A DNA stretch of 63,733 nt, the filler included, from Chrysochromulina tobinii (lineage: Eukaryota), in the NCBI GenBank assembly GCA_001275005.1. It is 9 parts of 9 records of this genome, joined end to end, with 100 filler letters (N's around TTAATTAATTAA, not from the genome) between each part and the next. Parts side by side here need not be neighbours in the genome. Positions count along the whole stretch, not along the records: positions 27,434 to 45,658 come from JWZX01000618.1; 8 more parts are not named here. One strand, written 5' to 3'. The translations under genes and the position numbers were made by a program. Below, in pieces: positions 15,510-55,400 of this stretch. Under the pieces are notes generated by a model. It was not told the DNA's origin. It did not search any database and saw only the letters and a list, made by a program, of their open reading frames with translations. How positions within the stretch are numbered: position 1 is the stretch's first letter; each line of letters opens with the position of its first letter.

Positions 15510-15762
15510 GCGCCTTTCGCCTCCTTTTGAAGCCATTCATTTTCTCAACCCCTTTGGCAGGCGTGGCCTTCTCTCATTTCCGACGATGCGACGATTCCCG
15601 GACACGCCGTGAGGGTCTGTGCGTCTCGCGCATCACGCCCTTTGCGTCCTTTCGCTTTTCTTTTCGAGCGCCTTTCACCTCCTTTTGAAGCATTCATTTT
15701 CTCAACCCCTTTGGCAGGCGTGGCCCCCAGACACGCCGTGAGGGTCTGTGCGGCTCGCGCAT
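15510..15762 (+). repeat. Imperfect direct repeat (~158-nt spacing)
   Basis: gcgccttt..cctccttttgaagc..attcattttctcaacccctttggcaggcgtggcc and gacacgccgtgagggtctgtgcg each occur twice. gtgagggtctgtgcgtc recurs at ~16110. Confidence 0.8.
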
Positions 15763-17790: not shown

Positions 17791-20272
17791 CTACGTATGT
17801 GTGGCTTCTGACCCTCGCTGTGACTTCTGGCGCGCGCGCATATCGCGGCTCTCCGCCACGAAGCCATCGAGGCCGAGGCTGACACGCTGCGCCTTGTAGC
17901 CCGAGGCTAGCCACCCCTCGTCCTCCTCAGCATGCAGGCCACTTGCGGGCGCCCACTCGACCTCTGCCGCAACCGCGACCGCATGGCGCCGCACCAAAGG
18001 AGGGGGGGGGGCTGGAGGTCCTGTAGACTTGTGGCCTTCAGAACTTTGACGGGAAATGGGCGAGAAATGGACGGAAGATTGACTGGACAGGGGTGGCTTG
18101 AGGTTCTCGGAATATGCAGTCAGGTTCTCCGGCCGCAGTGCCACCTTGCTCGTCTGCCCGTCGATCAGCACGTGCCAGAGGCCCTTGATCGCGTCGTGCG
18201 CGACCACGCGTGCTTTCGTGCCGTTCAGGTCGGTGCGCTGCGAGAGCCCAGCCACTGTGCAAATGTCGCCGACGACGATAACCAGCTCAGCCGAGGGCGA
18301 GACGATGGCGACCGGCATGTCGCCAGAGGCATGCGTGCCGTTGAGCGCCGTGTCGCCCGAGGCATGCTTGCCGTTGAGCGCCGTGTCGCCCGAAGCATGC
18401 GTGCCGTTGCTCGACCCTCTCTGAAGCGCCGTCGTGGTACCGGGCATGCGCCTGTCATCTCTCTGAGCGTCGCTGCCCCCCTCAACGGCCGCCACCGCCA
18501 TCGGAAAGGGGTCGTCTTCCAGCGTGACCTTCTGGAGCAGGGCAGCGCTATCCTGATCACCCTGCTCAACGCCTGGCAACCACCGCTCAAGGCTCACAGT
18601 GCCGCCATCGGTGAAGAGCGTCCGCAGCACGCCGAGCAGAGCTCCCACACGCCTCTGCACGCGCGCCTCAGCTTGCTCATCTAACTGCAGCGTCGCCGGG
18701 ACTAGCACGCTTGGATCGCCGACGAAGAGCTCGTTGGTCACCTGTGGGGAAGGAAGGAAGGGCGCCGTGGTGAGAATTCGCATGCGCGCGCGCGCACGCT
18801 CGGAACGACCCGGCAACGAGCTCATTGGTCACCTGGCGGCGCTCCTCGTCGTGCTGCGAGCGGAAGTCGAGGATGATCAACTTCTCAGCGCTGAGTGCCT
18901 CGAAGAGACGCCCGTTGAGTCCCCACGTTGGTGCAGAGACGGTGCGTAGCTGGAAGTGTACGGGCACCGCGGCCGAGCCGGCGCCCAGAGACTTGGCGCC
19001 GGTGGCCAGTGACGCGCGGCTTCGCGCGCTCGCCCCCTCGATGAGAGCGACCGCGGTGCGGTGATTGCGATTGATGACGAGCCGCAGAAGCACGGGCGAG
19101 ACGAGGATGCTGAGGACGACGGCGAGGATGACTGAGGCGAAGGCGCGCTGATCCAGGAGCCCAGCGGAGCGCGCTGTCGTCGCGACGACAAAGGCGAACT
19201 CGCCCCAAGCCGACATCGCCAGCCCAACCGTCCAAAACTGGCCCCAGTTCAACGGCATGGCCCACAGGCCGGTCGCAATCTTGCCCAGGACGGCGACGCT
19301 GAGGATGGCGGCGCCCTTGAGGACCTCGAGGGACGCGAACTCATTGATGGGCACCGCGAACGCGATCGTCGCTGCGAAAAAGATGCGCAGCAGCCACTGC
19401 ATGAGGCGCTTGACCTGGCGGGCCCACGAGTCGTGGACGTCGCGATCGGTGCAAAAGGAGAGGCCGGAGAGGAAGGCTCCGAGGAGCGGTGAGGAGCCGA
19501 GCTCGTGGCAGAGCGGTACGAGGATCATCGCGAGCAGCATCAGCATGCCGAGCAGTACCTTTGGGAGCCTCTTCGGCGGTATCCGGGGCTTCAGCCGCCT
19601 CATGAGCCCGGGCACCACCTGCACGCCCAGCCAGAGGCCCAAGGCAAGGAGACCCACCGACGACACGATTGGGCGCAGCAGCGACATGGCCGATGCATCG
19701 TCGAGCGCCTGCAGCTCAGAGAGCAAGATCAGCGCGATGATGTCGTCCAGCACCGCGGCCGAGATCACGAGCTGGCCTGTCGGGGTGTTGAGCACTTTGC
19801 CCCGCTTGAGCACGTTCAGCGCGACGCCCATAGAGGTCGGTGCGAGCGTGCAGCCGACGGCGAGTGCCGAGCGCCAGCTGAGGCCGAGCACGCCAATGGA
19901 GAGCGCGGTCGCAATCGCGAGCGGTGCGAGCGAGCCCGAGATTGCCACACCCAGGCCACGCAGCCCGAGGAGGCGCAGCATCTCCAAGTCGACGTCTAGC
20001 CCCGCCTCGATGACGAGCAGCATCAACCCGACCTCGCCGTAGAGCACAAGCGCATGGTGCTCAGGCACCACGTTGGCAAAGTTAGGCCCGAGCAGCCCGC
20101 CCACGACGATCTCACCCACAAGGGCGGGGCACCCAATCCGATGGAAGCACTTGCCCGTAACCCAGACAAGCGTGATGAAGAAGACTATCCACAGGATATG
20201 GTGGAACTCGTTGGCGTCGTCTTCGATCGCGTCGTCTAGGGAAGACGCGCCGCACGATACGTTGCTCGCCAT
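17791..20272 (-). CDS. CPA2-family cation/H+ antiporter with a long cytosolic tail; exons 20272-18833 and 18741-17791, intron 18742-18832
   Basis: About 12-13 TM segments with PALVGEIVVG.LLGP, EAGLDVD, LAPTSMG, SAAVLDD, LLGAFLSGL and GEFAFVVA. The GT-AG intron joins the two ORFs in frame. Confidence 0.9.
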
Positions 20273-27433: not shown

Positions 27434-27950
27434 TCAGGGGGGTGGTCTAGATGATCTGCAGCGCGAGAGGGCCGCGCCATTGAGTCTTCCTGGCGACAGA
27501 GGTGCCGAACATGGCCCGAACATGTCGGCGCGATACTGTTGCGTGAACCCCGTTCTTGGTTCTTCCCTCCCCCGACGGCGTGAAGAAAAGAGCCGTCCCT
27601 TGAGAATGAAACTGACTGTTGATGACTGATGCATATGAAGCCCCGCGAAAAGCCGATACAGCGCGCCCTTACAAAAAGGCGCGTTTTGACCTCTCTGTTT
27701 TCCTCTCACCGAGCCTCAGACAGACGGACCCGGTGACTGCGCGATCAATCAATAGCTGGAGGCGTGGGCGCCTTGTCGAGCCCCGTCGGCACTGCTCCTG
27801 GCTCGCTCCACCTGCCACAGCTCCCCATGCCCTGCGCGAACCCCAATCTCGTCGCGCTGCTCCGCCGGTGGACAGCGGCAGCCGAAGATGCTAATCATTC
27901 ATCGTGAGTGCCACGCATAGAACACGCGCGAGCACACAGCGCACTCGCAA

Positions 27951-30900
27951 ATGACGCCAGGACGCGCACCCTGTTTCGCTCGCAGACAGCAAGCGCAGAC
28001 CTTTCGCCGTGCGGCCAAATCGATGGCTGCACACCCGACGCCGATCACGTGCAAAGCGGAGGCGCTCGCCGTCAAGTTCGTCGGCGAGAAGATCGGCGAG
28101 GCGCTCGGCGACTATCTGGCCTTCGAGCGCGGTCAGCTGCTCGCCGATGTCCGGACCGTCGCGCGGCTGCGCCACGACGCCGAGGGCAAGTGGTGGAGCG
28201 TGCGGGTGTGCGCGGGCATGGCGTGGCGCTCGTGGGGCAAGCTCGCCAACGGCGCGGAGCAACCGGGGATGGACAACTGGGAGCACTGCCACGACGGCGC
28301 CGCTGCGCTCGCGTGGGCGGTCGAGAAGGCTACCAAACAGCTCAAGAAGGGCTACGCTCATGGCGTCGGCTCGGATGCGCAGTACGCAGCCGCGTGCGCC
28401 GAGGTGCCGACAGCACCACCTCGCGGCCGACGTGCGGGCGCCGCCATGGCTGCCGCCGCTCCGTCGGCGGCGCCGGCGCCAGCCGCACCGGCGCCCGCTC
28501 GAGCGACCTCCTCGGGCAGCAAGCCGCCGACCCTCGTCGCGTGGGATTCGGACGCGGACGCCGCCGACACTGACAGCGTCGCAGCGCCCTCGGCAGCGCC
28601 CTCGACGACGATGACGGCCGAGGAGGCGGAGGAGGCGGAGGAGGCGGAGGAGGCGGCGGAGGCGGAGGATCCCCTCCTGGACAACGACGGCGCCGAAAAA
28701 GAGGGCGAAGTGCGCAAGCGCGTGTACCACCCGAAGCTCACCAACCCCCGTGGGGAGGTGGCCGCTGCCCCCTCGATCTTAGTCGCGCTGTACCGGGCGG
28801 GCGCGATCGGCACCGGCAGTTTACACGCGCTCAGCACGGCGGAACTGTTGGGGCGCGCACAGAAGCTCTGCCCGGCCATTGGGCTCACGGCCACCTCGCT
28901 CGGTGGCAACGGGCGCGCACGCGGTGGGCGAGGCGGCGCCGGGCGGGGCGGCGGCGGCGGGCGTGGGGTGCACCGCGGCGCCGGGACGGGCGCTCTGAAG
29001 ACTCTTCTCAAGAATGAGCTGATCGTGATGCGCAAGGAGGGGCACACGCATGTGTATAGCCTCCTCACGACGCCCAGCGCGCTCGCGCCCTCGCGCCAGC
29101 AACCCGGCAGCGAGCTCGCCGCCACCCTTGACGTCGAGATGCATGCGCGCGAGGAGGAGGAGCGTCGAAGTCACGGCCGCCATGTGCACGGCCCGACACT
29201 CGGCGGCGGAGGGTATGTGCCGCCGCCGTGGGCGCCCGCCTACTGGCCCGACGGCGCGGGCGGCTACGTGCTCGCGCAGATCCCACTGCCCGCGACGGCG
29301 CCGCCTCCGGACGTTGCGAGTACGCTCAAGGCGGCGGGCTATCCCGTGCCGATTGCGAGTGGGTTCAGCTTCTTTGGGCCGCGCGTCGTGCCGCTGACAG
29401 ATGCGGCGGCGGCGGCGGCGGGACTGCCCGACGCGACCGCCGCGGCCTCGGCGGCTGCAGCGGCCGCGGCGGCCGCCGATGCCACGGGCTCCCTCTATGC
29501 GCGCCTCGCGCGGGCGACTGCGCAGCACGACGACGAGCACGGCGACGGGTATGGCGAAGACGACGACGAGGATGGCTCCTCGTGCTCGCACGCTGGGGAG
29601 ATGTATGGGGCGGACGACGAGGATCGACGGATGCGGAGGGCACTCGCGCTCTCGCGCGCGCAGCGTCGCGGTCAGGCAGGGGCCGCAAGCCGAGCGCTGT
29701 GCCGAGCGCGCACCGGCGCCGTTGCGGGCACGTCGGCCGGTGGCGCCTCCACCTCCTCCTCCGGGGGGGGGGGCGTGGCCCCCTTGGTGACTGCGACCGG
29801 CCCACAGCCACGCCCACAACAGCGCCCACAGCCACGCTCGCACGCCGAGTACCCAGCCCTCCCGCGCGAGGTGTATGACCTCACCTCGCCCTCGCCCACG
29901 GCGGCGCTCGCCCGGCCGTCACTGCCACGCGTCGTGCCGGGCGTGAGCGATGCCCTCGCGAACGCTGTGGTCAACCTTGAGGACGAGGATGGTGCCCATG
30001 ACGACGCTGGTCTCGAGGCGGGCAGGACGACGACGATGCCCACGACGACGCTCCAAGCGCCGTTCACAGCAGGCTCCCACTCGCACGCGCCGCCGAGACA
30101 TGATTGGGGCGCCGTCCTGGCGGCCGTTGCACCGCCGAGACAGGATTGGGGCGCCGTCCTGGCGGCCGTGGCACCCCGTGAGCATTGTGTTGTACAGCAG
30201 CAGCCCACTGAGCGGAACACCCGCCGCACGCTCGAGGCATCGATCGACGAGCCGGAGGAGGCGGACGAGGCGGACGAGGGCGCGGTGGCGGAGGAGAGCG
30301 CTGCGGCGCCCCCCTGGGATGATGACGATCTCGACTGGAGCTGCGACGCCGGCATGAGCGGCCGACCATCTGACAGCTGGCCAGCCCCCGCGGACGAGTC
30401 ACCGGGGGCGGCGGGGGGAGGGGAGGCGGCGCCACGACGTGCCAGCGGAGCTCCCGCGCTTGCTCCCGCGCTTGCTCCCGCGCTTGCTCCCGGGGCAGGC
30501 GCGGATGCGGCGGCAGACGCGGATGCGGCGGCAGGCGCGGACGCGGCGGCAGGCGCGGACGCGGCGGCAGGCGCACTGCTGGATGATGATCTCGATTGGT
30601 GCTGCGGCGCCGAGATGATGGTGGACGACGAGGACGAGGCGGAGGACGAGGCGGAGGACGAGGATCGTGCAGAGGAAGCGGCGGGGCCAGCCAGGCGCAG
30701 CTCGGTCGCCCGTCATCGCGCACCCGGGGGCGCGCGCGAGGCTGGGCGTGCGTGCAAGCTCTCGCGTGGTCCGTCCTCGACGGACATAGGCGCGGCGGCG
30801 CGGGCGGCGAGCGCCGCGGCGAGCGCCTCCTCGGCGGCCTCAAGAGAGCTCGATGCGGTCTCGATCTGCAGCACCGAGACCGACGAGGACGGGGAGAACC

Positions 30901-32258
30901 GATCTCTGAACACGGCACTCGTCGAGGACCAGCCCCACGCCCTCGGCGCTGTCGTGGGCGCGCCGCCGCTCACGGCCGAGTCGTCGTTCGTAACGGTCGT
31001 GGGCGTGAGCCCCAAACGGCGCCCGGCGCGCGCCGAGGCGAAGCAGGCGGTGCGCGGCCCCTCGGAGGCCGCCGGTGGTGCGCATGCCCTCCCTGCGGTC
31101 GCGGCGGGCACGGACGTCATGGACGAGGAAGCGAGCGCGGCGCAGGCGGTGCGTGCCTTCGAGCGCTGCCTGCAGCCGAGCGCGCGCGCGCCCGGCACGG
31201 CGCTCCTCGACGCGTACGACCTGGCGATCGTGGTCGACTGCCACGAGAAGCTCTCCAACGCCGAGAGGGCCGGGGCGCTCGTCAGTCGGCTGCAGGGGCA
31301 AGGCCTCAACGCCTTGAGCCGCCAGCTGCCCGTGGGTGACTTTCTCGTCGTCGCACTCCCCAAGCCAACTGGTAAGCCCACCAGCGGTCAGCCCGCTGGT
31401 AAGCCCGCTGGTGGAACCGCAGCTCGACCAGCATGCAAGTGCTCACCACGGCGCCTTGCCCCCTTCCCCACAGGTGTGAATACCGCTGGTGGAACCGCAG
31501 CTCGAGGCGCCGACGGCGTCGGCAGCAGCAGCGCCGGCAGCGGCTCGAGCGGCGGCGCCGGCGGCTCGAGCACGGAGTGGCTCGTGCTTGATACGGTCGT
31601 CGAGCGCAAGGTGCTGTGCGACTTCCTGTCGACCATCAAGTCGAAGCGCCACTACCACTCGCAAAAAGTGAGGCTACAGAGGTGCGGGCTGAACCGCGCG
31701 ATCTATCTCGTCGAAGGGCAGCTCGAGAGGTGGCCCCATGTCGCCGAGCGTCAGCGGATGGCACACGAGCTCGCCACGATCGAGATGGCCGACCGGCTGC
31801 TCGTGCACGTGAGCCGCTCGACCGACGATACGATACGCTTCCTGCGCGCGGCGGTCGAGCGGCTGCAACGGACGATCGGTGGTCGGGATGCAGCCGAGCT
31901 GCGCTGTGCCGGGCTGCTCAAAACCTATGAGGAGTTCGAGACGGCGACCAATCCGCCGGAGCTCGTCTCAGCTGCATTCGGGCGTATGCTACTCAACCTG
32001 CATGGCCTCTCGCCCCCGATGATCGCCAACGTGCTCGCAAAGTACCCGTCGCCTCGCGCGCTCGCGGAGGCCATGGAGTGCCACGAGCGTGCGTGCGTGG
32101 CGCGGGGCCTTCCCTCGGCCCACGCGCGTTGGCTGCTCGCAGATGACCTTGTGCCCGGCAAGCGCCGTCGCAAACTGAGCGAGACCATCACAGACTTTGT
32201 GATGGCTGAGGAGTACCCAACGCCGCCGGCGCCGCCGGCGTCGCAGACGCAGATCTGA
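27951..32258 (+). CDS. MUS81: MUS81-type structure-specific endonuclease (WGR-like, winged-helix, ERCC4 nuclease, HhH); probable in-frame intron 31399 (or 31372)-31473; start may be 28023
   Basis: ERCC4 motifs IVVDCHE, RQLPVGDF, VVERKVLCDF, SQKVRL and IYLVEG. HhH-like FGRMLLNLHGLS...YPSPRAL. Winged-helix-like SILVALY...LKTLLKNELI. Confidence 0.85.
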   Translation: MTPGRAPCFARRQQAQTFRRAAKSMAAHPTPITCKAEALAVKFVGEKIGEALGDYLAFERGQLLADVRTVARLRHDAEGKWWSVRVCAGMAWRSWGKLANGAEQPGMDNWEHCHDGAAALAWAVEKATKQLKKGYAHGVGSDAQYAAACAEVPTAPPRGRRAGAAMAAAAPSAAPAPAAPAPARATSSGSKPPTLVAWDSDADAADTDSVAAPSAAPSTTMTAEEAEEAEEAEEAAEAEDPLLDNDGAEKEGEVRKRVYHPKLTNPRGEVAAAPSILVALYRAGAIGTGSLHALSTAELLGRAQKLCPAIGLTATSLGGNGRARGGRGGAGRGGGGGRGVHRGAGTGALKTLLKNELIVMRKEGHTHVYSLLTTPSALAPSRQQPGSELAATLDVEMHAREEEERRSHGRHVHGPTLGGGGYVPPPWAPAYWPDGAGGYVLAQIPLPATAPPPDVASTLKAAGYPVPIASGFSFFGPRVVPLTDAAAAAAGLPDATAAASAAAAAAAAADATGSLYARLARATAQHDDEHGDGYGEDDDEDGSSCSHAGEMYGADDEDRRMRRALALSRAQRRGQAGAASRALCRARTGAVAGTSAGGASTSSSGGGGVAPLVTATGPQPRPQQRPQPRSHAEYPALPREVYDLTSPSPTAALARPSLPRVVPGVSDALANAVVNLEDEDGAHDDAGLEAGRTTTMPTTTLQAPFTAGSHSHAPPRHDWGAVLAAVAPPRQDWGAVLAAVAPREHCVVQQQPTERNTRRTLEASIDEPEEADEADEGAVAEESAAAPPWDDDDLDWSCDAGMSGRPSDSWPAPADESPGAAGGGEAAPRRASGAPALAPALAPALAPGAGADAAADADAAAGADAAAGADAAAGALLDDDLDWCCGAEMMVDDEDEAEDEAEDEDRAEEAAGPARRSSVARHRAPGGAREAGRACKLSRGPSSTDIGAAARAASAAASASSAASRELDAVSICSTETDEDGENRSLNTALVEDQPHALGAVVGAPPLTAESSFVTVVGVSPKRRPARAEAKQAVRGPSEAAGGAHALPAVAAGTDVMDEEASAAQAVRAFERCLQPSARAPGTALLDAYDLAIVVDCHEKLSNAERAGALVSRLQGQGLNALSRQLPVGDFLVVALPKPTGKPTSGQPAGKPAGGTAARPACKCSPRRLAPFPTGVNTAGGTAARGADGVGSSSAGSGSSGGAGGSSTEWLVLDTVVERKVLCDFLSTIKSKRHYHSQKVRLQRCGLNRAIYLVEGQLERWPHVAERQRMAHELATIEMADRLLVHVSRSTDDTIRFLRAAVERLQRTIGGRDAAELRCAGLLKTYEEFETATNPPELVSAAFGRMLLNLHGLSPPMIANVLAKYPSPRALAEAMECHERACVARGLPSAHARWLLADDLVPGKRRRKLSETITDFVMAEEYPTPPAPPASQTQI

Positions 32259-44554: not shown

Positions 44555-45658
44555 TTACAAGCTGGTCCTAGGCGCAAGCATCGTGGACAGCACGGTGAAC
44601 CAGCGGTCGCGCTCGGCGACGGAGGGGAGCCTGATGAAAATCGGCTCGTTGGTGACCAGGACGAGGGTGAGGTCGGTGGACCCGGGCTGGCCTGGGGTGA
44701 CGCCGGCGAGCGCCCTCCGGCTGCGTCCGACTGAAGTCGGGGGGCTCATTGTGAACTCGGCCTGGTTGTTGAAGTAGATCATCGTCTTGGACGATTCAAA
44801 CACAGCGGCATAGCGCCTGCTCCAACTCTTCAACAAGCCGCTGCCCTTCTTCTGCACCTCGCCTGCGATCAGCGGTAGCTCACCCAAACGGCGCGGGCTG
44901 GGCGCAGTCGAGCTCGAGGCTGCCGCCTCGGCTGCCGCTGACATCGCTCGGAATCGCGCTCTCTCCGCTAACGTCTCGGCGGATGGGCCCGCTTGTTGGC
45001 CGGCGTCTCCTCCCCGGGGCGCCTGCTGCGTGGCCGCAGTGTATGATGGAGGTGCGACAACGGCCAAGTACGATGGTGGGGCGTCGAATCCGATGGAGGC
45101 CGAGTACGATGTCGGCGCGTTCGTATCCACCGACGACGGCGGCGCGCGACCTGTCGACATTTGCATCCCGACAAAGGTTTCCTGGCTCGCCATGGCGCCT
45201 CCCCGCGCCACGACGACGATGCGCGCGCGGCACGATGGGCATTTATTCTGCGCGCCCCAACTCGTCTGGGCGACCGCGTTGATAAGGTCCTCAGTGCAGT
45301 CTTCGCAGCAGAGCATGTGACCGCATGCAAATCGGACGGAACGCGGCGCCGCCATGCAGATCACACACTCCTTCAGAGGCGTACCGGCGGCCTCTCGCTC
45401 GTCCACGCTTGCCTCATCGGCCATGCCAGGCAGAAGATTGGCGTCATCAGCGAGATCCTCGATCGCCTTGGTCGCTTTCGCGAAAGGCATGCGCTTCGCG
45501 AGCGTGGTGCCACACACGAGACCCTGGATGATGGAAGCAAGCCGCTCGGTGGTCTCGTTGGTCGGCCAGTCGGCTGTCAGGTCAGCCACTTCCAGCGCCT
45601 GGCTCGGGTCCTCGAGAACATTGTTCTCGAGGGTGGCCACGCGCATCGCATCCTGTGC
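44555..45658 (-). CDS. 5'-partial gene: kinase C-terminus, RING finger and PH-like domain
   Basis: RING: CVICM...CGHMLCCEDC...CPSCR. PH-like: GEVQKKGSGLLKSWSRRYA...ERDRWFTVL. 45207-45658 is nearly identical to 47334-47785. Confidence 0.8.
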   Translation of the reverse strand, partial: AQDAMRVATLENNVLEDPSQALEVADLTADWPTNETTERLASIIQGLVCGTTLAKRMPFAKATKAIEDLADDANLLPGMADEASVDEREAAGTPLKECVICMAAPRSVRFACGHMLCCEDCTEDLINAVAQTSWGAQNKCPSCRARIVVVARGGAMASQETFVGMQMSTGRAPPSSVDTNAPTSYSASIGFDAPPSYLAVVAPPSYTAATQQAPRGGDAGQQAGPSAETLAERARFRAMSAAAEAAASSSTAPSPRRLGELPLIAGEVQKKGSGLLKSWSRRYAAVFESSKTMIYFNNQAEFTMSPPTSVGRSRRALAGVTPGQPGSTDLTLVLVTNEPIFIRLPSVAERDRWFTVLSTMLAPRTSL

Positions 45659-45758: not shown

Positions 45759-47840
45759 GGCATCGCACTGGTCGGCCGGTACGCCATCGGCGAGCGCGTG
45801 CTGGTCAAACGGAGCGACGGGAGCGAGTCAGCGGCGGTGGTCGAGGCGTTTGACCCGGCGCACGATCCACCCATCTACGAGCTGAAGCTCGCGACTGGCG
45901 ATATGAAGCGTGCGCGCGAGCAGGACCTGCGCCTCGACCCGAGCTCGTGGCCAAGTTCGGTGCAGGCTCCACCGTGCCGGCGCACGTTCACCTTCGGTCG
46001 CGGCCCTCTGGGGCTCATCTTCGGCGATGGCGACGGTTTCGTCATCATCAACCATGTGGACGAAGGCTCGCAGGCGGGAAGGCTGGGCGTCGAGGTCGGC
46101 AGCAAAGTCATCAGCGTCTCTGGCAAGCTGATGGGGGGCGTGCCGCGCACGGCGGTGCTCGCCCGCATCAAGCAAGAGATGCAACGCGCGACGCAGCAGC
46201 AGCCGATGACCATGGAGCTCGAGCCGGAGATTCACATCATCCCCGCCGCCGCTGCCGGTGCGGATGATCTCGCGCAACTGATGATGGGGGCGGAAGGTGG
46301 CCAGACCCGTTGGCCAATGTCGCTCGATCCGAGCTCTATTGAGGTCTACACTAAGCGCTTCGAGGCGGCACACGCGCGGGCGGGGGGCGAGCCGGTCCTC
46401 GATGAAATGTGCCTCCACGAGGCCCGTGAGGCGGGAGTGAGCGACGAGGTGCTCAACCACATCTGGAGTCTGGTCGATGTCGACCGCGACGATCGGCTCT
46501 CGCTGCCCGAGTACCTCATGTGCTGTGCCCTCGTGGCCCAATTCCTTGGGAGGGGCGAGCCGCCGCCCGCTACACTGCCCGCGCCGATCCGCACCTTTGC
46601 GTACTCCGGCCGGGCAAACAAGGCCGCGATCACGCTGCGCGCGGGCACGGCGCTGCCCGAGCTCTCTGCCGCCGAGCTGGCCGAAGGTACTGGGCACTTT
46701 GACAATGCACAAATCATCGGCGCGGGCGGATTCGGCTCCGTCTTCCGCGTGGGCCCGGGCTGCCTGCCCTCACTGCCGCACACGGGCAGCTTTGCCGTCA
46801 AACGCCTCGATCGCGGCTCTCTCCAGGGGGTGCAAGAGCTGCAGAATGAGATCGAAGTGCTCGCGTTGTGCCGGCACGAGAGCCTCGTGCCCTTGCTCGG
46901 CTTCTGCCTCGACACGCGCTCGCTCTGCCTCGTGTACCCGCTCATGGAGGGCGGCACGCTCGAGCAGGCGATTGCGGAATCCTTCGGCTGCGGGCGACCA
47001 CTCCCCTGGCGCGCGCGCTTGCGCATCCTTCGCGCGGCGTGCCGGGCGCTTCTGTACTTGCACACGCCCAGTAGCACGAAGGGGGTTTTCCTGCACCGCG
47101 ACATCAAGCCGGCCAACATTCTGCTCGATGAGCATCTCAACGGGCGGTTGGCCGACGTGGGGCTCCTTGTAATGACGAACTCGAAGACGGACGCCGCCTC
47201 AGTGCACGCGACCAACATCAAGGGGACGCTCGGCTACCTCGACCCCTTATACATGAACACGGGCAAGTACACTGTCCACACTGACGCGTACGCGATGGGC
47301 GTCACCATGCTGGTGGCACTCACGGGGCGGGCGGCACAGGATGCGATGCGCGTGGCCACCCTCGAGAACAATGTTCTCGAGGACCCGAGCCAGGCGCTGG
47401 AAGTGGCTGACCTGACAGCCGGCTGGCCGACCAATGAGACCACCGAGCGGCTTGCTTCCATCATCCAGGGTCTCGTGTGTGGCACCACGCTCGCGAAGCG
47501 CATGCCTTTCGCGAAAGCGACCACGGCGATCGAGGATCTCGCTGATGACGCCAATCTCCGGCCTGGCATGGCCGATGAGGCCAGCGTGGACGAGCGAGAG
47601 GCCGCCGGTACGCCTCTGAAGGAGTGTGTGATCTGCATGGCGGCGCCGCGTTCCGTCCGATTTGCATGCGGTCACATGCTCTGCTGCGAAGACTGCACTG
47701 AAGACCTCATCAACGCGGTCGCCCAGAAGAGTTGGGGCGCGCAGAATAAATGCCCATCGTGCCGCGCGCGCATCGTCGTTGTGGCTGGTGCGGCGCGCGG
47801 CGTTTCGCAAACGACTTCGAGAGTCTTGAGGCGAGGCTAG
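45759..47840 (+). CDS. 5'-partial protein: SH3/Tudor-like, PDZ, EH, IRAK/Pelle-type kinase and RING
   Basis: PDZ: GPLGLIF...GSQAGRLGVEVGSKVISVSG. EH: IWSLVDVDRDDRLSLPEY...PATLP. Kinase: ELAEGTGHFD...IGAGGFGSVF, AVKRL, HRDIKPANILLD, DVG and GTLGYLDP. C3HC4 RING at the C-terminus. Confidence 0.88.
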   Translation, partial: GIALVGRYAIGERVLVKRSDGSESAAVVEAFDPAHDPPIYELKLATGDMKRAREQDLRLDPSSWPSSVQAPPCRRTFTFGRGPLGLIFGDGDGFVIINHVDEGSQAGRLGVEVGSKVISVSGKLMGGVPRTAVLARIKQEMQRATQQQPMTMELEPEIHIIPAAAAGADDLAQLMMGAEGGQTRWPMSLDPSSIEVYTKRFEAAHARAGGEPVLDEMCLHEAREAGVSDEVLNHIWSLVDVDRDDRLSLPEYLMCCALVAQFLGRGEPPPATLPAPIRTFAYSGRANKAAITLRAGTALPELSAAELAEGTGHFDNAQIIGAGGFGSVFRVGPGCLPSLPHTGSFAVKRLDRGSLQGVQELQNEIEVLALCRHESLVPLLGFCLDTRSLCLVYPLMEGGTLEQAIAESFGCGRPLPWRARLRILRAACRALLYLHTPSSTKGVFLHRDIKPANILLDEHLNGRLADVGLLVMTNSKTDAASVHATNIKGTLGYLDPLYMNTGKYTVHTDAYAMGVTMLVALTGRAAQDAMRVATLENNVLEDPSQALEVADLTAGWPTNETTERLASIIQGLVCGTTLAKRMPFAKATTAIEDLADDANLRPGMADEASVDEREAAGTPLKECVICMAAPRSVRFACGHMLCCEDCTEDLINAVAQKSWGAQNKCPSCRARIVVVAGAARGVSQTTSRVLRRG

Positions 47841-52489: not shown

Positions 52490-55400
52490 TTATGCGAGCG
52501 CCGGCTGCCCAAAAAGCTGCTTGAGTCGTGAGCGGAGCTCCTCGTCCTTGATGCTCGCAAAATCCTCTGGATGCTCCACGAGGTAGCTGCTCACGTCGCG
52601 CAGCCGGCCGCCAAGGATCTGCATGTCAACTTCGGTGTCGAGCGGCACCTCCGTGTCCATGCGCCGGCCGTTGCTTGGGCCGTTGCTTGGGCCGCACGCG
52701 ATCTCGCACTGTTGGGTGATGGAGTTGGAGTAGGTGCCAGGGCCGCATGTCATGGTCGGGCCACATGTCATGGGTGGTGGCGCAGGTGGAGGCGAGGGCG
52801 GCGGCGGCGAGGGCGAGGGCGGCGGCGGTGAGGGCGAGGGCGGCGGCGGCGAGGGTGGTGGCGGCGAGGCCCCGCACCACGTGCGCATCATCGAGATGAG
52901 CGGCGCTGGCGTGCTCGGCAGGCCGCCGCCGAGCCGCACGCCATCCAGCTGCGCCGGGCTGAGGGCGACGTCCCACACCAGCAGGTCCTTCATCTGGCCC
53001 GTGAACGTTGCCTCACCGGCCCAGTTGCTCTTGCCCACGTACAGGTTGGAGCGACTCACCGGCAGCGGGAAGCGCATCGACGACGTCGTCGCAACGCTCG
53101 CACCGTTCCAGTAGATCTGGGCGGGCCCGTAGGTGTCGGTGAGGCTCGCACGCGACTGCACGACCGCGACGTGAGTCCACACGTTTGCGGGGAATGATGG
53201 CGCCGAGCTTGCAGAGAGTGAGGAATCAGAACTCCCATGAGTCACATAGTACTGCATTTGGGAATAGAAATGCAGTACAATGCTGTCTGCAGCTTGACCG
53301 TTGCCGAAATCGATGACGCGTTCCCCTGTATCGCCAATCCGCGTGCGGTAGACCCACGCGCAGATCGTAAAGCCAAGCCCCCCGCCCACGATTCCGGTGC
53401 GCGACGTAGCCGTCAAGTAGGAGGTCGCCGCCCCGGTGAAGGTGTATGCGCCGTCGACGGCGCACAGCGGCGGAGGTGGCGAGGGCGGCGAGGGCGGCGG
53501 CGGAGGCAAGCGCGGCGGCGACGGGGGTGGCGAGTGCAGATCCAGGAACACAACCGTCAGCGATAGAGAACGACACCCCGGCACGTAAGCGTACGAGCCA
53601 CTTATGGCGACAAAATGAGCCTGTGAGCACAACACGTGAGCGCGAGCGAGCTTCAGCAGTCGGCGGCGCCGCAGGAGAAAGCATGATAGACGCAATCATG
53701 GCGCCCGAGGCCAACCGCGCGCCGCGGCTCTGGGTTATACGCACCCCATCCAGAAGGGACGATGAGACCACGCTGCCCCGGATGGCTGGAGACGCAGGAT
53801 TGCTCACGTCGACCACCACCAGCGCGTTGGAATTCGCCGCCGCCACGTATGCATACACGCCGCTCACGGCAACACCAACCGCATCTATCAGAAGGGACGA
53901 CGAGACCACGCTGCCCCGGATGACTGGAGATGTAGGGTTGCTCACGTCGACCACCACCAGCGAGCGGGAATTTTGGCCCGCCACGTAAGCGAACGAGCCG
54001 CTCACCGCGACGTCACGAGCCCCATCGAGAAGGGACGATGAGACCACGCTGCCCCGGATGACTGGATACGCAGGGTTGCTCACCTCGACCACCACCAGCG
54101 CGTCGGAATTGAACGCCGCCACGTAAGCATACACGCCGCTCACGGCGACGGAAATTGCCCCATCCAGAACGGACGACGAGACCACGCTGCCCCGGATGAC
54201 TGGAGACGCAGGGTTGCTCACGTCGACCACCGCCAGCGAGTCGGAATCAACCGCCGCCACGTAAGTGAACGAGCCGCTCACGGCGACGCCATATGCGTGA
54301 TCCAGAAGGGACGATGAGACCACCCTGCCTCGGATGACTGGAGACGCAGGATTGCTCACGTCGACCACCACCAGCGCGTCGGACTCAGCCGCCGCCACGT
54401 ATGCGTACGCGCCGCTCACGGCGACGTTACGAGGCCCATCCAGAAGGGACGATGAGACCACGCTGCCCCGGATGACTGGAGACGCAGGATTGCTCACGTC
54501 GATCACCACCAGCGCGTCGGAATTCGCCGCCGCCACGTAAGCGTACGAGCCGCTCAAGGCGACGGATATAGCGTAAGCCAAAAGGGTAGCTGAGGCGACG
54601 CTGCCCACGATCGACCCGGAGCCCACGATGGTTGTGGAGTGCGCGAGCTGTCGCCCATCATTCTGGCTGCCCGGTAGGGCTCGGGCGTAACGGCCGGGGG
54701 CGAGGACAATGCGGGGGAAGGATGTGGCGCCGAGTGCATTGATCAGGCCGGGAACGTTGCTCACTACTGTCGTTGGCGGTGACGGCAACGGCGACGGCGG
54801 TGACGGCAGCGACGGGGGCGCGGGCGGCGCGTCGAAGTACACCTCGAGCACCGGCTGCTGCGCAACGTTAGCCCAGGCTGCGGTGCGGATGCCGCACCCG
54901 TTGCCAAAGTACGGTACGAAGATCCAGCCGTGATTGGGCGTGCCCGTGAGCCACCTGTTGATGCTCGGCGTCACGTCTACGGTGTGCGTGGCCACGTTGC
55001 CAGCCAGGTCGTTGACAGTCGGGCCCCAGTACGTGTCGATGACCGCCGCAGAAAAGGGCCAAGGGGGCGTCGGCATCGGCAGGTTGTCGTACGTCACGTT
55101 GCTCGCAGTCCAGCCGCGGCAGAACTCATGCATCTCCGCCTGGTCGCCACCGTCATACACGGTGTAGCGGAAGAGCGCGCGGGAGATGGGAGCCATGGCC
55201 GAGAGCGCGCTCAGGTCGAACTTCATCAGCACGAAGTCGACATCAGTCCTGCGGGCAGCAGGTGGTTAAGGAGGAGAGGCACACACACGTGTGAGCACAG
55301 GAACGGTTCGAAATAGGACGAGGCCGTTGGGAGCAGCAGCAGTTGTAGCTGAGCCGACCACGTGTCGAGAGGGTTCGGTGCACTGCTGGCCGCGCACGCT

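What the first reader, a model, noticed from the sequence alone, without database searches (positions are those of the whole stretch)
31372..31505. Introner-like intron 2 hidden in frame inside the MUS81 nuclease domain
Seen: a perfect 23-nt duplication CCGCTGGTGGAACCGCAGCTCGA (31405-31427 and 31483-31505) brackets a 55-nt insert: CCA, the 43-nt shared cassette ending CACAG, then GTGTGAATA. Two G|GTAAG donors (31372 and 31399) give 102- or 75-nt introns. Both are multiples of 3 and stop-free, so the ORF track reads through (ACKCSPRRLAPFPT). Inference: the perfect duplication marks a very recent insertion that is tolerated whether spliced or retained, so this may be an intron caught at birth.
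Basis: partly seen in the sequence, partly recalled or inferred. Interest (0 to 1): 0.82.

Follow-up and report, generated by a model that had tools for sequence, protein, structure and literature searches.

The report
Self-copying introns with long site duplications
A 102-base intron in an algal DNA-repair gene, seen spliced in one RNA data set, belongs to a family of likely hundreds of introns built from a shared 25-base motif plus a roughly 30-base copy of the host gene, and it was likely copied from an intron in another gene, which would be an undescribed way of making introns.

Summary
Observation confirmed. The intron is real: one RNA run joins 31371 to 31474 (102 nt, GT..AG); another holds the donor unspliced. 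The 75-nt form was not seen. The host is Chrysochromulina tobinii or very close. The 25-nt core recurs at about 120 sampled sites, likely hundreds per genome. At 68 of 99 sites with an acceptor tail, a 10-48 nt copy of the downstream exon precedes the core, and 64 of these begin with GT. Splicing there keeps the frame at 44 of 49 testable sites. There are no terminal inverted repeats. The MUS81 copy shares 62 nt (one mismatch) with an intron in an apyrase-like gene, including 9 exon bases native to that gene, with 5- and 2-nt microhomologies at the joins. This points to copy-and-paste by template switching from a non-spliced template; DNA versus RNA template is open. 'Caught at birth' is not supported: like insertions with perfect duplications are shared by lineages 0.7-2.5% apart, and no empty site was found. 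Read-through is incidental: 43 of 68 introns are not multiples of three. Verdict: new variant of introner-like elements, not found in the papers searched.

The parts
27921..32258 (+). Host reading frame, MUS81-like crossover-junction endonuclease (likely start ATG at 28023; ERCC4 domain)
   Evidence: ORF; PF02732 E 7e-13; homologues
31372..31473 (+). 102-nt GT..AG intron, phase 1, seen spliced
   Evidence: RNA run X13 contig joint, depth 4.5, 127 letters on the shorter side
31372..31404 (+). 33 nt of likely former exon (low-complexity loop, repeats of about 12 nt) that carry the used donor at 31372 and a second GTAAG at 31399
   Evidence: sequence; isoform translations; former-exon status is inference, no empty allele seen
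31405..31427 (+). First, intronic copy of the 23-nt duplication; holds a third in-frame GT at 31411
31423..31484 (+). 62-nt block shared, with one mismatch, with the intron in locus L040 (apyrase-like gene): 5-nt microhomology, CCA, core, tail, 9 exon bases, 2-nt microhomology
31431..31455 (+). 25-nt family core: two 6-bp palindromes around a predicted branch point (CTCAC, 31442-31446)
   Evidence: branch-point role is inference from motif and a median 27-nt distance to the acceptor
31456..31473 (+). Pyrimidine tail and CAG acceptor
   Evidence: acceptor used in X13; tail variability
31474..31482 (+). Nine bases now exonic in MUS81, likely captured from the exon downstream of the parent intron
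   Evidence: covered by the spliced X13 contig without other letters; native to the L040 duplication and frame
31483..31505 (+). Second, exonic copy of the 23-nt duplication
18742..18832 (-). Second family member in the window: predicted 91-nt intron in a Na+/H+ exchanger gene, donor GT at the start of its own duplication
   Evidence: removing it joins two open frames; no RNA laid here

Best explanation
This is a spliced 102-nt intron of a multi-copy family, likely made by copy-and-paste: a broken end in the MUS81 gene likely paired through a few bases with an existing intron copy elsewhere, copied its branch-point motif, tail and acceptor plus nine exon bases, and rejoined its own gene 23 bases back, which would leave the duplication. 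In typical members the return is at a GT, so the duplicated exon stretch supplies the donor and splicing restores the message exactly. Here the return overshot, nine foreign bases stayed in the exon, and an upstream GTAAG serves as donor. Shown: splicing at 31372/31473 in one run; family architecture; frame conservation; the 62-nt block shared with L040. Inferred: direction L040 to MUS81, the break, a DNA template, template switching, and a role of the core as the signal that is copied. The enzyme is unidentified. Confidence that it is a spliced member of a young mobile family is about 0.9; the figure below is for the whole mechanism.
For: RNA joint skipping 102 nt GT..AG, not the 78 nt between the repeats. 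68 of 99 tailed sites have a duplication anchored at the first exon base, against 0.4% of 3000 mismatched pairs; 64 of 68 start with GT. Length varies: median 28.5, range 10-48 nt. Frame kept at 44 of 49 confident sites (of 64 eligible), 42 of 43 when the duplicated part is skipped, against 597 of 1467 control pairs. MUS81/L040 is the only pair of 9863 among 141 tailed copies, besides one orthologous pair, that shares 8 or more bases to the left and 11 or more exon bases. Other sibling pairs share both flanks (L100/L012, L056/L007). 21 of 50 remaining sites have a duplication offset by 0-22 extra bases. Arrays of core plus duplication at 34-92 nt spacing suggest repeated switching. No inverted ends: longest match 2-3 nt at 68 of 68.
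Against: Splicing rests on one contig in 1 of 4 RNA runs laid (4 of 6 listed). No empty allele: 0 of 68 junctions found apart from tandem self-hits, and that test is weak because loci were fetched by the cassette. A general repair process does not explain why one 25-nt core is copied hundreds of times. Microhomology is short (5 and 2 nt) and measurable only in a few parent-child pairs. The G before the donor (53 of 68 against 250 of 964) fits selection for splice sites equally well. All sites were found by the core, so copies without it are invisible. 31 of 99 tailed sites lack an anchored duplication. L040 may be a sibling rather than the parent.
Confidence: 0.5

Rival explanations
1. Target-primed reverse transcription: a LINE- or Penelope-type enzyme acting in trans would nick the target, prime at a GT on unspliced pre-mRNA that holds a family intron, copy back through acceptor, tail and core, and jump to the second nick, giving a long variable duplication.
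For: Variable-length duplications flank non-LTR insertions (PMC9977147 passages). The 3' end is exact at 68 of 99 tailed sites while the 5' spacer varies (median 4.5 nt). Left-truncated copies outnumber right-truncated ones 29 to 10. RNA contigs hold unspliced cassette copies from other loci (loose ends). Penelope-like elements make short tandem insertions.
Against: No poly(A) or simple-repeat tail seen in the 99 tails listed. 19 of 118 sites end before the acceptor. Many left-truncated hits are sub-core tandem arrays, and 6 of 29 lie on the opposite strand and may be chance. No partner retroelement identified. The passages read on Chlamys elements give microsatellite targets, not this pattern.
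Confidence: 0.3
2. A non-autonomous relative of Replitrons: a Rep (HUH) transposase would copy the cassette, with an imprecise right end and variable duplication as seen for Replitron-1.
For: Replitron-1 is copy-and-paste, carries sequence from downstream of its parent and makes variable duplications (PMC10288648 section 9). A single Replitron-like fragment is listed for C. tobinii.
Against: No short terminal direct repeats evident. No significant hairpin in or around the core (z 0.07 to 1.22). The left end is not fixed and does not follow RG (base before the core: T 48, C 23, A 17, G 11 of 99). The C. tobinii element is described as an incomplete single fragment; its ends could not be compared.
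Confidence: 0.1
3. Not mobile as a unit: plain tandem duplications become introns, and the core is a conserved splicing signal spread or evened out later by gene conversion.
For: Tails differ between orthologous insertions in 4 of 4 tailed pairs while the core is the same (the core is fixed by the search). New Daphnia introns have direct repeats from staggered breaks (PMC4202315 passages).
Against: A duplication without the cassette has no acceptor at most sites. The RNA-supported 82-nt intron of the same gene lacks the core. Foreign exon bases in MUS81 need a copying event. Daphnia repeats are 4-12 bp.
Confidence: 0.06
4. A coding insertion in a variable protein loop that is mostly retained; the spliced form is minor or an artefact.
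For: The frame is open, the loop is length-variable in homologues, and X12 holds 51 letters past the donor unspliced.
Against: The joint has GT..AG ends and does not coincide with the direct repeats, so repeat-driven template switching in library making does not explain it. The family needs splicing at non-3n sites.
Confidence: 0.04

Closest known systems
Introner-like elements of Symbiodinium and Polarella glacialis classes 4/5 and 6/8/10 (bioRxiv 10.1101/2020.10.14.339549; PMC9860276 Fig. 2B)
   Same: [quoted passage not shown]
   Different: Those have fixed 4- or 8-nt duplications, and the Symbiodinium ones have inverted repeats. Here duplications are 10-48 nt and variable, make up about a third or more of the intron, there are no inverted ends, both ends are imprecise and only a 25-nt core is shared.
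Introners of marine Chrysochromulina sp. TARA genomes (PMC9860276 Fig. 2C)
   Same: Same genus label, multi-copy introns without terminal inverted repeats.
   Different: The family shown has 4-bp duplications, carries the donor and takes the acceptor from the target: the reverse of this one. The other families of those genomes were not compared by sequence.
Replitron-1 / Replitron-N1 of Chlamydomonas reinhardtii (PMC10288648)
   Same: Copying with sequence captured from downstream of the parent, and variable target duplication.
   Different: Those are 0.9-3.6 kb with a fixed left end after RG, terminal direct repeats and a hairpin; not reported as intron makers in the passages read.
New introns of Daphnia pulex attributed to staggered double-strand breaks (PMC4202315)
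   Same: Direct repeat between intron end and adjacent exon; some recruit neighbouring exon sequence into the intron.
   Different: Repeats of 4-12 bp, AT-rich inserts whose source was hard to locate; here there is a shared core and a traceable source intron.

Membership tests
Introner / introner-like element (broad sense) | Many sequence-similar copies at unrelated sites | tested here: met
   121 site clusters from 145 matches; rough estimates 290-700 exact-core sites per genome
Introner / introner-like element (broad sense) | Copies are spliced out as spliceosomal introns | tested here: met
   RNA joint for this copy; frame kept at 44 of 49 sites, which is indirect for the others
Introner / introner-like element (broad sense) | Similarity over the whole intron length | tested here: not met
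   5' part is a site-specific exon copy; 97 of 99 tails distinct
Introner / introner-like element (broad sense) | Presence/absence polymorphism or empty orthologous site | tested here: inconclusive
   none among held loci (weak test); distant homologues lack the peptide
MITE-type (cut-and-paste) introners | Terminal inverted repeats | tested here: not met
   longest match 2-3 nt for core plus tail, at most 5 nt for whole introns, 68 sites
MITE-type (cut-and-paste) introners | Short target duplication of fixed length (3-9 bp) | tested here: not met
   10-48 nt, median 28.5; the scoring could not have reported duplications under 10 nt
Replitron | Short direct terminal repeats, fixed left end after RG, terminal hairpin | tested here: not met
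Replitron | Ends shared with a Rep-encoding autonomous element | not testable with these tools
   no whole genome held; core halves not found in the paper's 7 supplementary files
Non-LTR / Penelope-like non-autonomous retroelement | Variable duplication, precise 3' end, 5' truncation | tested here: inconclusive
   variable duplication met; truncations on both sides, 29 left and 10 right
Non-LTR / Penelope-like non-autonomous retroelement | 3' end shared with an autonomous reverse-transcriptase element | not testable with these tools
   no whole genome held
Reverse-spliced intron (fungal ILE model) | Insert equals an excised intron, no duplication, no exon bases | tested here: not met
   insert lacks the parent's 5' part and includes 9 bases of the parent's exon

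The most novel reading that the evidence does not exclude
A transposase-free intron factory: a 25-nt motif that holds a branch point makes a host polymerase or reverse transcriptase copy intron 3' ends into breaks, returning at a GT so that each event yields a ready-made, frame-neutral intron and now and then moves codons between unrelated genes.
Probability: 0.3. Interest if true: 0.85.

Novelty: new variant of a known kind. Interest (0 to 1): 0.64.

Why it matters
How new introns arise is a long-standing question, and source sequences of new introns are rarely found. Here a source copy can be named, the joins can be read base by base, and hundreds of events likely sit in one culturable alga, so mechanism is testable. 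The architecture (site-specific 5' part, shared 3' part) would likely escape searches that need whole-intron similarity: C. tobinii was among the genomes screened in PMC9860276, and its name appears only in the list of screened genomes in the part of the supplement held. Such families may therefore be undercounted. The MUS81 case also shows three codons likely moved from one gene into another.

Tried and rejected
No whole genome is held, so no genome-wide count, empty-site scan or search for an autonomous element. The full-length homologue search found nothing at E 0.001 among proteins of 794-2529 aa; the C-terminal query worked. The first duplication statistic had a null inflated, probably by cassette copies in flanks, and was replaced by an anchored test. 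One search trained its codon model one base out of frame and is superseded; only its direct translation of the second window copy is used. The L007/L056 alignment was uninformative. Rfam: two matches far below gathering score, taken as chance. Folding: no significant hairpin in the cassette; the whole intron folds at z -2.4 (4 of 200 shuffles as good), from its 5' part. Viral contigs: one match at the end of a 4.5-kb contig, not followed up. My recalled idea that Chlamys Penelope-like elements make 20-40 bp duplications was not borne out by the passages read. Runs X18-X21 hold next to none of the words: no evidence either way. X14 (29 letters past the donor) and X15 (starts at 31473 with 5 unplaced letters) fall short of the 31-letter bridging rule. 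Look-ups of earlier findings by sequence, by words and among relatives gave nothing.

Full report
Observation. The duplication, insert, donors and open frame are as described. The host frame 27921-32258 has an ERCC4 domain, and the insert sits in the loop between the two conserved blocks, which varies in length among 12 aligned homologues, none with the cassette peptide (12 of the 26 non-self hits plus the window's own fragment were candidates, and I aligned P0001-P0006, P0008-P0011, P0013, P0018). P0007, named Chrysochromulina tobinii Ctob_011267, scores 94% over 25% of the query and by inspection matches the window frame letter for letter in the blocks it includes. The host is therefore C. 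tobinii or very close. That model leaves the window frame right at the 31372 donor.

RNA. Six RNA runs hold the stretch; four were laid, as assembled contigs. X13 has a joint skipping 102 nt with GT..AG ends (depth 4.5, 127 letters on the shorter side), which is the intron 31372-31473. It does not coincide with the 78 nt between the repeats. X12 has a contig running 51 letters past the donor unspliced (depth 2.5), and the same run splices an 82-nt intron upstream. No 75-, 63- or 78-nt joint appeared in the four runs. 45 pieces and 18 loose ends were not shown. Contigs cannot give levels, and DNA in the libraries was not controlled, so retention is possible but unproven. Two RNA runs and all DNA runs were not examined.

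Family. With the two window copies, 145 matches fall into 121 site clusters; 3 were dropped for short flanks, 99 have an acceptor tail and 19 do not. Loci with several copies are represented by their last copy, and one true site (L056) was merged with a neighbour. At 68 of 99 tailed sites a copy of the downstream exon, starting at its first base, lies upstream of the core (0.4% of 3000 mismatched pairs); 64 of 68 start with GT; predicted introns are 57-128 nt, median 78, with 25, 27 and 16 in the three length classes. Duplications are 10-48 nt, median 28.5. A codon model trained on 33 window frames called both flanks at 49 of 64 eligible sites. Splicing from the duplicated GT keeps the frame at 44 of 49, at 29 of 32 non-3n sites, and at 42 of 43 when the duplicated part is skipped; mismatched pairs agree in 597 of 1467. 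All 15 consistent 3n introns are stop-free, so read-through at MUS81 is what a third of members show. Flanks hold 51 more diverged full copies and 55 partial ones; independent neighbours share the strand 44 to 2. Copy number is rough: about 700 (274-2576) from 4 coincidences in 2808 cross-assembly pairs, or about 290 from extra loci per contig scaled to 59 Mb (genome size). Both assume those 20 assemblies are one strain, which rests on 4 identical pairs. They sit uneasily with the tool's total of 1400 stretches.

Source of this copy. The MUS81 copy lacks the typical anchored pattern: nine extra bases separate acceptor and duplication. Locus L040, an intron in a GDA1/CD39 apyrase-like gene, shares 62 nt with one mismatch: five bases that are also the end of the MUS81 duplication, CCA, core, tail, the nine bases, and two bases that are also its start. 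In L040 those nine bases begin its own duplication and lie in its frame, so L040 or a close copy is the likely parent. Among 9863 pairs of 141 tailed copies, only this pair and one orthologous pair share that much on both sides. Because exon bases were copied, the template was not an excised lariat. With the inferred earlier allele, splicing at 31372 removes 11 former codons and adds 3; the earlier allele itself was not seen.

Age. Anchored duplications show 74 mismatches in 1739 bases, and 34 of 68 are perfect. Seven sites are shared between assemblies 0.7-3.6% apart, including perfect 26- and 22-nt duplications in pairs 0.7% and 2.5% apart. A perfect 23-mer only bounds divergence below about 12%. 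The copy is young, not shown to be new or segregating.

Mechanism. Long variable duplications, no inverted ends, captured flanks, short microhomologies and repeated core-plus-duplication arrays fit template switching between target and an existing copy. I favour a DNA template at a staggered break (0.5) over target-primed reverse transcription on unspliced RNA (0.3) by a small margin; the data here do not separate them well. A Replitron-type enzyme gives similar right ends but the defining ends are missing. Unexplained: why the core is so constant while tails differ even between orthologous insertions (4 of 4 pairs).

Literature. Seen: PMC9860276 (passages; supplement searches, the file was cut when stored and the 17-base motif was not in the held part); PMC12130899 (passages; no mention of Chrysochromulina, haptophytes or Penelope in the main text; supplements not searched); bioRxiv 10.1101/2020.10.14.339549 (parts 1-2 of 4; supplements not seen); PMC10288648 (abstract, passages, section 9 part 1 of 2, supplement search); PMC9977147, PMC8557442, PMC4202315 (passages); PMC11282704 (part 1 of 5 and passages). 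Ten searches listed no paper whose title or abstract start describes this family. The library lacks most subscription papers, and unseen consensus tables could hold it. The branch-point motif and the idea that repair polymerases make templated insertions are from my own knowledge.

Verdict. A real spliced intron and a member of an introner-like family with an unusual build and a traceable source copy: new variant of a known kind, interest 0.64.

Noticed in passing
window 27904-27985 (+): An 82-nt GT..AG intron near the 5' end of the MUS81 gene is spliced in run X12; it has no core and no evident exon duplication.
   Followed up: partly
window 18742-18832 (-): Second family member, in a Na+/H+ exchanger gene; 91 nt, so it must be spliced to keep the frame.
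   Followed up: partly
L040 771-1151: A second, complex intron with several partial cores, one switching at GCTCAC back into a copy of upstream exon, mixed with short tandem repeats of about 10-11 nt.
   Followed up: no
L030 and L075 flanks: Tandem arrays of 18-21 nt pieces of the core, a possible source of intronic minisatellites.
   Followed up: no
L014/L111, L033/L052, L041/L120, L066/L095: The pyrimidine tail differs in all four orthologous pairs although flanks differ by only 0.7-2.5%.
   Followed up: partly
RNA runs X13-X15, loose ends at window 31428-31457: The same unspliced cassette copy from another locus appears in three runs, at depth up to about 30, well above the MUS81 contigs; a highly expressed or retained copy that could serve as an RNA template.
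   Followed up: no
L132 3001-3060: One core with tail at the end of a 4.5-kb contig of the viral collection; host DNA or a viral copy not decided.
   Followed up: no
window 45207-45658 and 47334-47785: 452-nt inverted repeat, 98% complementary, 1675 nt apart, next to a gap; possible transposon ends or assembly effect.
   Followed up: no
window 53744-54733: Six 138-nt tandem units, likely a coding repeat.
   Followed up: no
window 15534-15752: Direct repeats of 35 and 23 nt at 157- and 129-nt spacing just after an assembly gap.
   Followed up: no
protein P0007: The public C. tobinii gene model skips most of the nuclease domain after the 31372 donor and so looks mis-predicted.
   Followed up: partly
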